A stretch of 63,287 nucleotides of DNA, counting the filler, from an uncultured Methanosarcinales archaeon (GTDB taxonomy: Archaea; Nanobdellota; Nanobdellia; Woesearchaeales; JAGLXL01): NCBI GenBank assembly GCA_964472345.1. It is 6 parts of 6 records of this genome, joined end to end, with 100 filler letters (N's around TTAATTAATTAA, not from the genome) between each part and the next. Parts side by side here need not be neighbours in the genome. Positions count along the whole stretch, not along the records: positions 35,661 to 46,698 come from CAYYLB010000044.1; 5 more parts are not named here. One strand, 5' to 3'. Made by a program: the position numbers. Below, piece by piece: positions 39,001-42,000 of this stretch. Each line of letters starts with the position of its first letter. Position 1 is the first letter of the stretch.

Positions 39001-42000
39001 CGGTCGCCTCTCCAGCCCATCTTATTCCGTGGGAATTCTCCTCGTTTTTTGGCTTTCATTGTAGGTGGTGGGTGTGGACATCATCCAAGTTTCTCAATGG
39101 CTTTTATCACCCGCCGCATACTCGACAATTGTGTGGAAACAATCATAAAACAGATGCTTCCAGCAGCAAAAAGTATTACAATCGAAGCAAAAAGATGAGA
39201 TTTATCCGACAAACTTAATTGTCTGGTCATAAAAGCAATTACAAGACCAATAAGCACAGTAAAGAAAATAATTATTGTAGTATTGACCGTCTGGAGATGT
39301 TTCTGGTAATTTAAATCAAGGATGTTTTTCCTTCTTTGTGATTCTTCCATAACGAGAACTCAATCACCCAAACCGACAGCAATGAGGATGATGCCTAAAA
39401 CCAAAAACCCCGTTGCTCCAATGGTGATACTGTATCTCCCAGAAGCAAATGCTGGAATCCCGCCCGCAAGACCAACGATAGTGCTTATTACGCCTGCAAC
39501 GATAAAAAGATTTTTTTGGCGTTGTCTCATTTGTGTATAAGCTTAGAATCTCATCTTATTTAAAAATCTTACTTCTTTTTCCAGAACATTCCCGCCTTTG
39601 AGCTTCTGCTTCTCGGCTTGCCCTTGTGATCCAGCCTACGAAAATCTCTAGAAAATCACAAAAAATACGGCAGCCGGGACTTCCGTTCGCATTTCGAACC
39701 CGGGTCTCCACCTTGGGAGGGTGGGGTCTTACCGCTGGACCACTGCCGTATGAAACAGTGGAAAAGGGCGCGCTTTAAATACCTTATGAGAGGGAAAGAG
39801 AATATGCCGCGGCCGGGAAAGCCACGCCGCCGCGCTGCTCGGCAGCGATTTGAACCCGGGTCGAAGCCTTTCCCTGCAGTGCACGAAAGGGCTTCATGAT
39901 TCTCCGGCGGACGCGTTCCGCGCTCACTGGCGGCACGCTCCTGTCCGGACTACACCACCGCGGCACGCGAGCCCCGTTTTGCGCTGGCTATAAAAACATT
40001 TCTAAAACCAACCTTTAAAAGAAACGTCCCGTTCACCTCCCCGTGGACGACCTGCACCTATGGCTCAATGGGCGCTATCGCGATGCGGAGAAACTTCGCC
40101 CCCGCTTCGCAACGGCAAGGCCATTTCCCCACATCGTCCTGCGCGGCTTCTTTCAGGAAGAAAAGATAAGCCCGATTGAACGCGCCCTGCGCCGGCAGTT
40201 GTTCACCCGAACCGCAGCAGACCTCTACCAGTTCTCCCGCACGCCTGACTTCCAGCGCCTCAGCGACCGCGCGCTCAGGACGTTCCATTCCTTCTTCCGC
40301 TCGCCTGCGTTCATCAACTATATCGGCACCATGACTGCTGCCTCATTAAGCGGCACGATCGACATGGCAGGCTTCCTCTACCAGGACACCGACTACCTGC
40401 TGCCGCACGACGACCGGCTGCACGGCCGCGCCGTCGCGTACATCCTCAACCTCTCGAAAGGCTTCGCAAAAAAAGACGGCGGCCAGCTGCAGCTCCTCGC
40501 GGCGAAAAACAACAGGCCGTCGCGCGCCGTCAAAACAATCGCTCCGCTGCGCAACACGCTGACGCTCTTCAAGGTCACGCCGCGCTCGTTCCACCAGGTT
40601 GCGGAAGTGCTCAGCAGAAAAAAACGCTTTTCCATCGCGGGGTGGTTCCATGGCTAAATGGGGGGGTATCCATCCGGCGTATCTCCAGCTGCAGACGCTG
40701 CGGCGCGCTGCATCAGCCTATCATAACAACCATCCGCACAGCATCCAGCTGACGCAGTTTCTCCTGCCACAAGCCTGCCGTGCGCTGCTTCTTGCTGCGA
40801 AGGGCGCGCGCTGGAAGCGCCACGAGCAGTACGGGCAGGCGCGCTTCGCAACCGCTGCTCTTCCCCCACCTCTCCGGCAGTTTCTTGCGGGCGAACCGCT
40901 TCAAGCGCTGCTGCATGCGATCACGGGCAGGCAGCCTGGAACTGCACGGCTCTTCGCCTTCCGCCACCGCGATTACACATTGCTCAGCGACGGTGTACGC
41001 CAGCCGGCAGGCACCCTCTTCCAGCTCGAGCTTACGCCGCGCTGGCAGGCCGCATGGGGCGGATTCACCAGCTTTGTCGCGAATGGCCGTGAGCCGCTGC
41101 GCATCACTCCCATGCCCAACAGCCTCGTGCTTGCCGAGCAGCAGGCAGGGGTGCAGCAGTTTGTGAAGTATGTGAATCATCACGCAGGCATCACTCCACG
41201 GATCATGGTGCAGGGCGCTCTCCATGGCGATCACAAGCCCCGCTTCAGGCCGGATGAGCCGGAATTTCTTGCCTCTGCAGCGGTGGAATGATAAGAATGG
41301 GCCCGGGCAGACTCTCATGCGTTGGCATCCACCGCCGCTTTTGAACTGCCGACCACCTGCTGACTTCGTGCGAGGAGCGTCGCCCTATAAGACAGGCGCT
41401 CCAACCAGGCTAAGCTACGGGCCCGCAATGCAGCGAAAGCCGCGCGTTATTTAAACGTTGCTTCTTTCCGGTGCAGTCAAGCGAGGTGCCAAGCGTGAGC
41501 CGCCACCGTCAGTACAAGCAGCGCCGGAGCCGCAGGCGGAGGCGCGACGGCCGCGAGCTTCGGGCCGGCGCAGGAAGCGGCTCAAGCGGCGTGAGCGCAG
41601 CCGGGGAAGGTGTATTGGTTGCGCGGGACGCGCCTTGGCATTCCACCATCCGGATCCCCGCGGAAAGCTTTAAATAGAAGCAGAGCTGAGCTTGCAGCGG
41701 AGGGGTGTTGGTACGCAGCATCTCGCATACCGCGCTCGCTCACCAGAACGGGTGGGTGTTCCACCGGGAGGGATTGGCATGAAACAACACATTCGGTATG
41801 GGGATGGCGGCGACGACGAAGATTGGGACGAGTAATCAACTCATCATTTTTCTTTTTTCTTGGCAAACGATGCGGCTGCCGGGGATCGAACCCGGGTCAC
41901 AACCTTTTTTCACGGGGTTTTTCCCGCATGGCAAGGTCGTATTCTACCACTAAACCACAGCCGCGCTCCACCAGCAGTTTTGCAGATAGTTTTTAAATAT

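What a model noticed while it worked through the whole genome (the two positions that open the first line are those of the whole stretch)
40043..41291. Two-gene archaeal homologue of the eukaryotic ribosomal prolyl hydroxylase OGFOD1/Tpa1
Two overlapping genes encode, separately, the catalytic 2OG/Fe(II) oxygenase domain (g01005, 204 aa, 39% identical to Xenopus OGFOD1) and the non-catalytic C-terminal domain (g01006, 213 aa, Pfam Ofd1_CTDD) of the eukaryotic OGFOD1/Tpa1/Ofd1 family. I read the pair as a heterodimeric archaeal OGFOD1 that hydroxylates the conserved proline of ribosomal protein uS12 (g00782 keeps the KQPNSA target loop), i.e. oxygen-dependent ribosome modification in an archaeon. 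This enzyme and its modification are so far treated as eukaryotic, so it would extend ribosomal prolyl hydroxylation to Archaea and offer a minimal split version for study.
Evidence so far: swissprot.tsv: g01005 27-204 vs OGFOD1 X. laevis 61-240, 39.1% id, E 4.5e-28; human OGFOD1 36.5%. Pfam 2OG-FeII_Oxy_4 E 3e-28; HxD...H present (PHDD, FHQV; call 97). g01006: Ofd1_CTDD PF10637 E 1.9e-9, 37.8 bits (cut-off 27), model 108-236/255; not in pfam.tsv. The genes overlap by 8 nt (C44:4383-4997 and 4990-5631). Complex test of g01005 with g01006 (ESMFold2, call 105): the model supports binding, score 0.80, best of 3 controls 0.01 (mark reached by 51 of 78 solved complexes and 2 of 108 mismatched pairs; runs agree in at least 80% of contacts, partner pLDDT at least 80); OGFOD1 and Tpa1 structures are solved, so the pass may reflect memory of the one-chain fold. 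uS12 g00782 has EAKQPNSAM [...]
(Added by a program. Inside this text positions count along the whole contig: they may not be those of the stretch shown here. "Call 12" and the like, gene names such as g00115 and contig names such as C1 are that model's own, and its searches are not shown. The text may have been shortened before it was handed on; [...] marks where a part breaks off. The agent that wrote the report below was given it as the finding of a first reader that could run no searches.)

Follow-up and report, generated by a model that had tools for sequence, protein, structure and literature searches.

The report
Split archaeal OGFOD1-type prolyl hydroxylase pair
A small groundwater archaeon encodes, as two overlapping genes, the catalytic and the non-catalytic halves of the enzyme that in eukaryotes hydroxylates a proline of ribosomal protein uS12, a family that the literature describes as eukaryote-only.

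Summary
Window 40043-40657 (+) encodes a 204-aa 2OG/Fe(II) oxygenase. Its only solved relatives by sequence are human OGFOD1 (E 5e-29) and yeast Tpa1. Window 40650-41291 (+) encodes a 213-aa protein that matches Pfam Ofd1_CTDD, and its model's best fold match is the fission-yeast Ofd1 C-terminal domain.

The split is real. It recurs in 95 of 98 distinct loci, none fused, mostly Woesearchaeota/Pacearchaeota/Nanoarchaeia (DPANN) genomes. It is also in six genomes of one Heimdall-labelled lineage; four of the five tested carry actin. Contigs from three other samples cross the junction without an indel.

The two genes are paralogues of each other (hhalign E 1.8e-23). The second has lost all three iron ligands.

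The iron triad, the 2OG-binding arginine and most residues of OGFOD1's substrate groove are conserved across 98 archaeal sequences. This supports a heterodimeric prolyl hydroxylase acting on uS12, but no activity has been tested. The KQPNSA loop is invariant whether or not the pair is present, so it proves nothing.

Three papers say this family, or such enzymes, are missing from archaea. I found no paper reporting it there.

Verdict: a new split variant of a known enzyme family; its evolutionary direction is unresolved.

The parts
40043..40657 (+). Gene 1 (g01005): 204-aa catalytic 2OG/Fe(II) oxygenase domain of OGFOD1/Tpa1 type. It ends ...GWFHG*, at the end of the eukaryotic N-terminal domain.
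   Evidence: ORF. Pfam PF13661 E 3e-28. The only PDB sequence hits are OGFOD1 4NHX (5e-29) and Tpa1 (2e-10). 36% identity to a bat OGFOD1.
40650..41291 (+). Gene 2 (g01006): 213-aa non-catalytic double-stranded beta-helix domain, the equivalent of the OGFOD1/Ofd1/Tpa1 C-terminal domain. It starts at the conserved (W)INxxYL-type motif that opens the eukaryotic C-terminal domain.
   Evidence: Pfam PF10637 E 1.9e-9, 37.8 bits. The only PDB sequence hit is OGFOD1 residues 467-540 in chain numbering (E 6e-6). AF2 model pLDDT 71, pTM 0.72. Foldseek top hits are 6E0T (Ofd1 C-terminal domain, 2.5e-10), OGFOD1 and Tpa1. Family profile against metazoan OGFOD1 profile: hhalign 99.6%, E 1.5e-24, 178 columns.
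40650..40657 (+). 8-nt overlap ATGGCTAA: the start codon of gene 2 lies inside the last codons and stop of gene 1, the usual layout for translational coupling.
   Evidence: Sequence. By a heuristic choice of start codons, an 8-nt overlap is seen in 38 and an 11-nt overlap in 23 of 94 paired loci. Contigs of three other samples cross it with no indel.
40406..40414 (+). Codons for H122-D123-D124. H122 and D124 are the HxD iron ligands, equivalent to OGFOD1 H155 and D157.
   Evidence: Alignment to 4NHX with residue roles from Horita 2015. H in 97 and D in 98 of 98 archaeal sequences.
40592..40594 (+). Codon for H184, the distal iron ligand (OGFOD1 H218).
   Evidence: Conserved in 97 of 98.
40625..40633 (+). 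Codons for R195-F-S197, the RxS motif that binds the C5 carboxylate of 2-oxoglutarate (OGFOD1 R230/S232).
   Evidence: R in 97 of 98; the S position holds A, T or S.
40014..40021 (+). TTTAAAAG, an A/T-rich box about 26 nt upstream of the GTG start. It may be an archaeal TATA box for a leaderless transcript (inference only). A second box, TATAAAAA, lies at 39989-39996.
   Evidence: Read directly from the sequence. No test was run.

Best explanation
The two genes form a translationally coupled operon for a two-subunit OGFOD1/Tpa1-type Fe(II)/2-oxoglutarate prolyl hydroxylase. Gene 1 makes the catalytic domain with the iron triad, the 2OG-binding arginine and the peptide groove. Gene 2 makes a paralogous domain that has lost all iron ligands. 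By analogy with the fused eukaryotic enzyme, gene 2's product packs against the catalytic subunit and helps to bind the substrate or a partner. The most likely substrate is the proline of the EAKQPNSA loop of free, unassembled uS12. That would place an oxygen-dependent hydroxyl group in the ribosomal decoding centre. Shown here: family membership of each half, the conserved split, the paralogy of the halves, conservation of active-site and groove residues, and the distribution across genomes. Inferred: the heterodimer, the substrate, and any effect on decoding.
For: 1. Each half matches only OGFOD1/Tpa1/Ofd1 among solved structures. The C-half family aligns to the whole metazoan C-terminal domain at E 1.5e-24.
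2. The split pair is adjacent in 94 of 97 distinct fetched loci plus the window, and none is fused. In a sample of the window's order, 49 of 401 genomes carry gene 1, with open frames of 177-353 aa.
3. Contigs from three further samples of the same study cross the junction with no indel.
4. In OGFOD1 the two domains 'pack tightly against each other' (Horita 2015, passage).
5. Of the 10 residues that line OGFOD1's proposed substrate groove, 8 are identical in the window protein. Across 98 archaeal sequences: L95 in 97, Q100 in 97, D140 in 95, L152 in 98, D156 in 95, L159 in 89, R162 in 98, W236 in 97, K91 in 73, and Y96 as F in 94.
6. The genome's own uS12 has the target loop.
7. The genome has a Ni-SOD, so it meets oxygen.
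8. Purified Tpa1 hydroxylates an RPS23 peptide but does not dealkylate DNA (passages of PMC6746446).
Against: No activity or modification data exist for any archaeon. The uS12 loop is invariant in 29 of 29 genomes compared, of which only 3 carry the pair, so it gives no co-variation signal. The window protein is the family outlier at two groove positions (K91 is T, Q100 is R). It also has N where OGFOD1 has the 2OG-contacting Y169; N occurs there in 19 of 98. The distribution is patchy: 12% of the order sample, and 1 of 8 genomes of the window's own family. The modification is therefore dispensable. No conserved third gene points to a substrate; the commonest neighbour family occurs in only 11 loci. 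Nro1/Ett1, the eukaryotic partner of the C-terminal domain, was not looked for.
Confidence: 0.6

Rival explanations
1. The same two-subunit 2OG oxygenase acts on a different protein substrate, such as another ribosomal protein, a translation factor or a DPANN-specific protein, or it has a regulatory binding role. The uS12 activity would then be a eukaryotic specialisation.
For: The substrate is inferred from homology alone. Identity to OGFOD1 is only 36%. The window protein differs at K91 and Q100. Patchy distribution fits an accessory role. In fission yeast the Ofd1 C-terminal domain has a non-ribosomal regulatory role; I saw this only in the abstract of PMC5690285 in the listing.
Against: Eight of the ten groove positions hold the OGFOD1 residue in at least 89 of 98 archaeal sequences. 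That is hard to explain if the bound peptide differed. uS12 and its loop are present and invariant.
Confidence: 0.25
2. The pair is an oxidative nucleic-acid repair or demethylation enzyme of AlkB type, as was once proposed for yeast Tpa1.
For: Recurrent neighbours include TatD DNase (9 loci), ATP-dependent DNA ligase (9), a dCTP-deaminase-like protein (8), UDG (6), NDK (6) and RadA (6).
Against: Each neighbour family is in at most 11 of about 98 loci and may reflect shared synteny among kin. Housekeeping genes dominate these small genomes. By sequence, only OGFOD1 and Tpa1 are hit in the PDB at E up to 0.01. Purified Tpa1 did not dealkylate DNA but did hydroxylate an RPS23 peptide.
Confidence: 0.05
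3. The split is an artefact: a single fused gene broken by an assembly or sequencing frameshift, a decaying pseudogene, or a contaminating non-archaeal contig.
For: A run of 7 G lies just after the junction and a run of 7 A lies 30 nt before it. In one sample's contig (X3), G>A at 40062 turns codon 7 of gene 1 into TAG.
Against: The same N-then-C overlapping layout is in 94 of 97 other distinct loci. These include single-contig genomes and a contig of more than 660 kb. No fused form was seen. No indel appears in contigs of three other samples. Both frames are conserved at the protein level. The contig carries eIF6 and deoxyhypusine synthase.
Confidence: 0.02

Closest known systems
Human OGFOD1 (uS12/RPS23 Pro62 trans-3-hydroxylase; PDB 4NHX/4NHY)
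   Same: Catalytic domain with HxD...H, RxS and the same groove residues. A second, metal-free double-stranded beta-helix domain. Best sequence hit of both genes.
   Different: OGFOD1 is one chain: N-terminal domain 24-238, linker 239-269, C-terminal domain 270-542, with a disordered acidic insert of about 60 residues. The archaeal form is two polypeptides with no linker and no acidic insert. Identity is 36%. Activity is untested.
S. cerevisiae Tpa1 and S. pombe Ofd1 (uS12 prolyl 3,4-dihydroxylases; PDB 3KT1 etc., and 6E0T for the Ofd1 C-terminal domain)
   Same: Same two-domain family. The model of gene 2 has the Ofd1 C-terminal domain as its top fold match.
   Different: The sequence match is weaker (Tpa1 E 2e-10). 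The fungal C-terminal domains bind Ett1/Nro1, and Tpa1 dimerises through loops that the other family members lack (passages). I did not search for archaeal counterparts of Ett1/Nro1.
Single-domain prolyl hydroxylases (PHD2/EGLN1, bacterial PPHD acting on EF-Tu, collagen-type P4H)
   Same: Same fold and chemistry. They appear as lower-ranked fold matches of the gene 2 model.
   Different: They are not hit by sequence at E up to 0.01. They lack the second domain. They have longer finger loops and a C-terminal helix for substrate binding (Horita 2015 passage).
JmjC-type ribosomal oxygenases (bacterial YcfD; human MINA53/NO66)
   Same: Oxygen-dependent hydroxylation of a ribosomal protein, including in prokaryotes (passages).
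   Different: They belong to a different 2OG-oxygenase subfamily and act on Arg or His of large-subunit proteins. The literature says they are also absent from archaea.

Membership tests
OGFOD1/Tpa1/Ofd1 ribosomal prolyl hydroxylase family | Catalytic N-terminal double-stranded beta-helix domain with an HxD...H iron triad and an RxS 2OG-binding motif | tested here: met
   H122, D124, H184 and R195-x-S197 align to OGFOD1 H155, D157, H218 and R230/S232. Conserved in 97-98 of 98 archaeal sequences; the S position holds A, T or S.
OGFOD1/Tpa1/Ofd1 ribosomal prolyl hydroxylase family | A second double-stranded beta-helix domain (Pfam Ofd1_CTDD) that lacks the metal ligands | tested here: met
   PF10637 at 37.8 bits against a cut-off of 27. 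hhalign to metazoan OGFOD1 at E 1.5e-24. Top fold matches are the Ofd1 C-terminal domain, OGFOD1 and Tpa1. In the alignment of the two gene families, the positions of both iron-binding histidines and of the aspartate are variable or hold other residues.
OGFOD1/Tpa1/Ofd1 ribosomal prolyl hydroxylase family | Both domains in tandem on one polypeptide, joined by a linker | tested here: not met
   Two ORFs overlap by 8 nt. None of 98 distinct loci is fused. Open frames are at most 353 aa in 49 positive genomes of the order sample.
OGFOD1/Tpa1/Ofd1 ribosomal prolyl hydroxylase family | Conserved substrate groove (OGFOD1 K91, L95, Y96, Q100, D140, L152, D156, L159, R162, W236) | tested here: met
   8 of 10 are identical in the window protein (K91 is T, Q100 is R). 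Across the family, 8 of 10 are identical in at least 89 of 98; K91 is K in 73, and Y96 is F in 94 (residue list).
OGFOD1/Tpa1/Ofd1 ribosomal prolyl hydroxylase family | Hydroxylates the proline of the uS12 KQPNSA loop | not testable with these tools
   The loop is present in the genome's own uS12, but it is invariant with or without the pair. No biochemical or proteomic data are available.
OGFOD1/Tpa1/Ofd1 ribosomal prolyl hydroxylase family | Closer to OGFOD1/Tpa1 than to other prolyl hydroxylases | tested here: met
   At E up to 0.01, phmmer against all PDB sequences returns only OGFOD1 and Tpa1 chains for gene 1. At E up to 1 it returns only OGFOD1 for gene 2.
AlkB-type nucleic-acid dioxygenases | Sequence or profile match to the AlkB family | tested here: not met
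   No AlkB family appears among the Pfam hits at E up to 1 or among the PDB sequence hits.

The most novel reading that the evidence does not exclude
The tandem-domain architecture of the eukaryotic ribosomal prolyl hydroxylase arose in archaea as a tandem gene duplicate: a catalytic gene plus a degenerate paralogue, still separate and translationally coupled in DPANN archaea and one Heimdall lineage. Eukaryotic OGFOD1 would then be the fusion of that pair. On this reading, oxygen-dependent hydroxylation of the decoding centre predates eukaryotes or was acquired from archaea, and the split pair is a living intermediate that lets the role of the non-catalytic domain be tested on its own.
Probability: 0.3. 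Interest if true: 0.85.

Novelty: new variant of a known kind. Interest (0 to 1): 0.7.

Why it matters
Three papers from the field state that this family is missing from archaea:
- OGFOD1-type hydroxylases 'are found only in eukaryotes' (Horita 2015).
- Protein hydroxylation by 2OG oxygenases is common in eukaryotes and many prokaryotes 'but not archaea' (Markolovic 2015).
- Ribosomal oxygenases 'appear not to be present in archaea' (Sekirnik 2018).

A conserved archaeal version in about 12% of a sampled DPANN order, and in one actin-bearing Asgard lineage, contradicts those statements.

It also provides a natural two-piece version of the enzyme. The function of the enigmatic non-catalytic domain can be tested by leaving one subunit out. 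The duplication-then-fusion origin proposed for the family becomes testable by phylogeny.

If uS12 is the substrate, tiny symbiotic archaea with no aerobic respiration would tune their decoding centre according to oxygen supply.

Tried and rejected
1. Complex prediction of gene 1 + gene 2 + the genome's own uS12 (partner uS12; alignments A4, A5, A6) gave no verdict, so it counts neither for nor against binding.
2. Sequencing runs: no RNA holder is listed, so nothing can be said on expression.
3. Eukaryotic diversity for a tree:
   - The profile search of near-length proteins listed only animals among its best 120 of 696.
   - The exhaustive profile search gave 150 representatives. Of 10 looked up, 8 were named and all were animals (6 nematodes, 2 insects); 2 had no name.
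   - So no fungal, plant or protist sequence entered the trees.
4. The careful tree under the site-heterogeneous model was killed by the sandbox. I used LG+G4 for the careful tree instead.
6. The Atlas did not hold gene 2. A homologue of gene 1 gave leads only: Nanobdellota clusters, a C-domain-only archaeal cluster, a single-domain cluster commonest in Thermoplasmatota, and single-domain bacterial clusters.
7. PMC3964080 (Loenarz 2014) is not held.
8. Asgard ancestry of the family, rejected as the simple reading: only 6 of 301 genomes of the phylum sample carry the pair, all from one close group.
9. Conserved third gene: none was found.
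Full report
**The observation**

The window is a chain of contigs joined by runs of N. 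The finding lies on an 11-kb contig, window 35661-46698.

They overlap by 8 nt, ATGGCTAA.

Gene 1 matches 2OG-FeII_Oxy_4 at E 3e-28. Gene 2 matches Ofd1_CTDD at E 1.9e-9, 37.8 bits against a cut-off of 27, model positions 108-236 of 255. NCBIfam adds nothing useful: YhhC at 35 bits against a cut-off of 150.

The contig also carries an S51 peptidase, a TPR protein, tRNA-Leu, an odd tRNA call that may hold an intron, a divergent SAM synthetase, ScpA, eIF6 and deoxyhypusine synthase. The host is therefore an archaeon. The genome is 1.26 Mb in 120 contigs and rated 100% complete. Its nearest homologues and its family-level relative G007 carry the titles Woesearchaeota or Nanoarchaeia. It is a DPANN archaeon, and the stretch is held by groundwater metagenomes.

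**What each gene is**

Against all PDB sequences, gene 1 hits only human OGFOD1 (4NHX, E 5e-29, chain residues 79-259) and yeast Tpa1 (2e-10). Identity to a bat OGFOD1 is 36% over 181 aa.

Gene 2 hits only OGFOD1, in its C-terminal domain (E 6e-6). An AlphaFold2 model of gene 2 has pLDDT 71 and pTM 0.72 from a 4-row alignment. Its best Foldseek matches are the fission-yeast Ofd1 C-terminal domain (6E0T, 2.5e-10), then OGFOD1 and Tpa1. Single-domain prolyl hydroxylases rank below them.

A 76-row profile of the gene 2 family aligns to a metazoan OGFOD1 profile at 99.6% probability, E 1.5e-24, over 178 columns. The match runs from the (W)INPxYL motif that opens the eukaryotic C-terminal domain to the YVNH motif near its end. 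The metazoan acidic insert is simply missing.

Gene 1 ends at GWFHG, the last residues of the OGFOD1 N-terminal domain. The eukaryotic protein therefore equals gene 1 plus a linker plus gene 2.

**The split is real and conserved**

PF13661 is found in 3 of 40 relatives of the window genome, and all three show the same overlapping N-then-C pair.

Pattern scans of one genome per prokaryotic species gave 18 loci confirmed with the C-domain alignment (of 55 pattern matches). The N-domain alignment confirmed 91, of which the best 80 were kept (of 268 pattern matches).

A script with HMMs built from my alignments examined 106 fetched loci, 97 of them distinct:
- 94 have both genes adjacent on one strand.
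- None is fused.
- By a heuristic choice of start codons, the overlap is 8 nt in 38 and 11 nt in 23.
- The exceptions are L066 (the locus ends too soon), L062 and L086 (no C gene downstream), and L054 (another ORF is inserted between the two genes).

In an even sample of the window's order, 49 of 401 genomes carry gene 1 at E up to 1e-20. That is 45 of 281 high-quality genomes and 34 of 258 genera, with open frames of 177-353 aa.

Contigs from three further samples of the same study cross the junction with no insertion or deletion.

**The two genes are paralogues**

The two family profiles align end to end at 99.6% probability, E 1.8e-23, over 195 columns, at 16% identity. In that alignment the positions of both iron-binding histidines and of the iron-binding aspartate are variable or hold other residues in the gene 2 family. 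Gene 2 is therefore non-catalytic, like the eukaryotic C-terminal domain. This fits the gene-duplication origin that Horita et al. suggested (passage).

**Active site and substrate groove**

I took the residue roles from passages of Horita 2015. I mapped them by hand on the 4NHX alignment, where chain numbering is native numbering plus 20. I then counted them over 98 archaeal-type N-domain sequences.

| OGFOD1 residue | Role | Archaeal sequences with the same residue (of 98) |
|---|---|---|
| H155 / D157 / H218 | iron triad | 97 / 98 / 97 |
| R230 | binds 2OG | 97 |
| L95 | groove | 97 |
| Q100 | groove | 97 |
| D140 | groove | 95 |
| L152 | groove | 98 |
| D156 | groove | 95 |
| L159 | groove | 89 |
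| R162 | groove | 98 |
| W236 | groove | 97 |
| K91 | groove | 73 |
| Y96 | groove | F in 94 |
| Y169 | contacts 2OG | Y in 73, N in 19 |

The window protein has 8 of the 10 groove residues. It is the outlier at K91 (T) and Q100 (R), and it has N at Y169. This conservation is the best available argument that the bound peptide is the same as in eukaryotes.

**What does not help**

The genome's own uS12 reads ...LEAKQPNSAMRKC. The loop is identical in the window genome and 28 relatives, 29 of 29, of which only 3 carry the pair. The unpublished genome G008 was left out of that comparison.

No third gene is conserved beside the pair. The commonest neighbour family, an MgtC/DUF4010 membrane protein, occurs in 11 loci. 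Several DNA-metabolism genes recur in 6-9 loci each.

**Oxygen**

The genome has a Ni-SOD (E 4.5e-45) and no haem-copper oxidase. The organism meets oxygen but does not appear to respire it by that route.

**Who has the pair**

Almost all loci come from records titled Woesearchaeota, Pacearchaeota, Nanoarchaeota or Nanoarchaeia. Some carry the title 'uncultured Methanosarcinales'; one of these (G033) is a 0.77-Mb single chromosome that the genome search places in the window's order, so I read that label as a placeholder.

Four loci carry bacterial labels:
- L011 ('Yanofskybacteria') holds a full archaeal 16S rRNA next to the pair (1379 bits).
- L067 ('bacterium') has PCNA and a TFIIS-type factor as neighbours.
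- L077 is undecided.
- L091 is undecided; it has a bacterial-type QueA next door.

One locus, L020, is from a record titled Heimdallarchaeota. An EAP30/Vps36-family gene and a Pelota-like gene sit beside the pair. Among 30 relatives of that genome, 5 also carry the split pair. One copy lies at 660 kb in a large contig. Four of the five genomes tested have a full-length actin (E about 1e-133), which none of 14 control genomes has. These are real Asgard archaea. However, in an even sample of their phylum only these same 6 of 301 genomes have the gene.

**Phylogeny of the N domain**

Rows used: the window, 92 archaeal-type loci, 4 loci with bacterial labels, and 130 of 156 metazoan-type representatives. 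The other 26 were dropped because they lacked a full N domain. Archaeal rows with five or more X were dropped, which removed L020.

- FastTree on 227 rows puts all metazoan-type rows on one side of a branch (support 91). The Heimdall rows form one group (87) inside the DPANN diversity.
- For the slower trees I used 83 rows: the window, 5 Heimdall, 4 bacterial-labelled, 42 of 87 DPANN (every second one) and 31 of the 130 metazoan-type rows.
- The careful LG+G4 tree separates archaeal-type from metazoan-type at 100/100. It nests the Heimdall clade (100/99) in an 11-row clade (89/82) inside a 32-row clade (83/87), none of these nesting branches starred.
- Under LG+C20 (PMSF), the best tree with Heimdall and the eukaryote-type rows held together has a log-likelihood 8.78 higher than the quick free tree, with p-AU 0.64.

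The data therefore do not decide between two readings: Heimdall as sister of the eukaryotic branch, or Heimdall as a recipient from DPANN. The narrow Asgard distribution favours the second. All named eukaryotic rows are animals. The trees exclude a recent transfer from animals but say nothing about other eukaryotes, or about the direction of any old transfer.

**Literature**

[quoted passage not shown] - Sekirnik 2018 (passage): ribosomal oxygenases 'appear not to be present in archaea'.

Full-text searches found no paper reporting the family in archaea:
- OGFOD1 + archaea gave 12 papers; from their listing and the passages I read in four of them, none reports an archaeal OGFOD1.
- Tpa1 + Asgard gave 1 unrelated paper.
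- 'prolyl hydroxylase' + Heimdallarchaeota gave 0.
- A six-term search for any two terms listed no paper that joins the two topics among its 25 best of 658.
- 'ribosomal oxygenase' + archaea gave 12 papers, none reporting one.
- One search found nothing relevant among the 15 papers listed.

Subscription journals are not covered. Automatic annotation has already noticed the resemblance: JGI names two homologues 'Rps23 Pro-64 3,4-dihydroxylase Tpa1-like' and 'prolyl 3-hydroxylase/prolyl 3,4-dihydroxylase'.

**Verdict**

This is a well-supported split, two-gene archaeal member of the OGFOD1/Tpa1/Ofd1 kind. It fails only the single-chain criterion of that family. It most likely works as a heterodimeric prolyl hydroxylase on unassembled uS12, at about 60% confidence for the full statement. 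The main rival is a different protein substrate.

Noticed in passing
window 40062: In the contig of one other sample (X3, word depth 10) G>A turns codon 7 of gene 1 (TGG, Trp) into TAG. This could be a null allele in that population, a downstream start, or a contig error. A second difference, 40664 G>A in X2 and X3, is synonymous in gene 2 (GGG to GGA).
   Followed up: partly
L011 2621-4238: A record titled 'Candidatus Yanofskybacteria bacterium' carries a full-length archaeal SSU rRNA (Rfam RF01959, 1379 bits) about 1.2 kb from the split pair. The 5.7-kb contig is archaeal and was binned into a bacterial genome.
   Followed up: yes
window 42516-43766 (+): The 416-aa ORF matches only the bacterial/eukaryotic-type S-adenosylmethionine synthetase domains, and weakly (PF02773 at 2.5e-12, PF02772 at 9e-8). 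It looks like a divergent MetK-type enzyme in an archaeon.
   Followed up: no
window 41871-41964 (-): ARAGORN reports a 94-nt tRNA with an unreadable two-base anticodon. It may be an intron-bearing archaeal tRNA, lying 580 nt downstream of gene 2.
   Followed up: no
L054 2654-3631: In this one locus an ORF that looks, by eye, like a nucleotidyltransferase is inserted between the N and C genes, separating them by about 1 kb. Elsewhere they overlap.
   Followed up: no
L020 4612-5286 (-) and 484-1545 (+): In the Heimdall-labelled contig, the pair is flanked by an EAP30/Vps36-family (ESCRT-II-like) gene and a Pelota-like gene with eRF1 domains 1 and 3.
   Followed up: partly
loci L031, L032, L078, L098 and others (flanks of the pair): DNA-metabolism genes recur next to the pair: TatD DNase in 9 loci, ATP-dependent DNA ligase in 9, a dCTP-deaminase-like gene in 8, UDG in 6, NDK in 6 and RadA in 6. 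Each is in under 12% of loci, and this may be shared synteny among related genomes.
   Followed up: partly
window 40133-40657 (gene 1 family alignment A4): The position of the 2OG-contacting Tyr (OGFOD1 Y169) is Y in 73 and N in 19 of 98 sequences. In the few sequences I compared by eye, those with N (the window, L004, L010, L013) have Y three residues earlier where the others have F. This may be a compensating pair.
   Followed up: no
Atlas clusters near P0019: A 121-member cluster of 191-aa single-domain PF13640/PF13661 proteins is commonest in Thermoplasmatota. Bacterial clusters of 232 and 268 aa have TM 0.91 to the archaeal N domain. They are candidate single-domain outgroups. I did not check whether they have a partner gene.
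   Followed up: no
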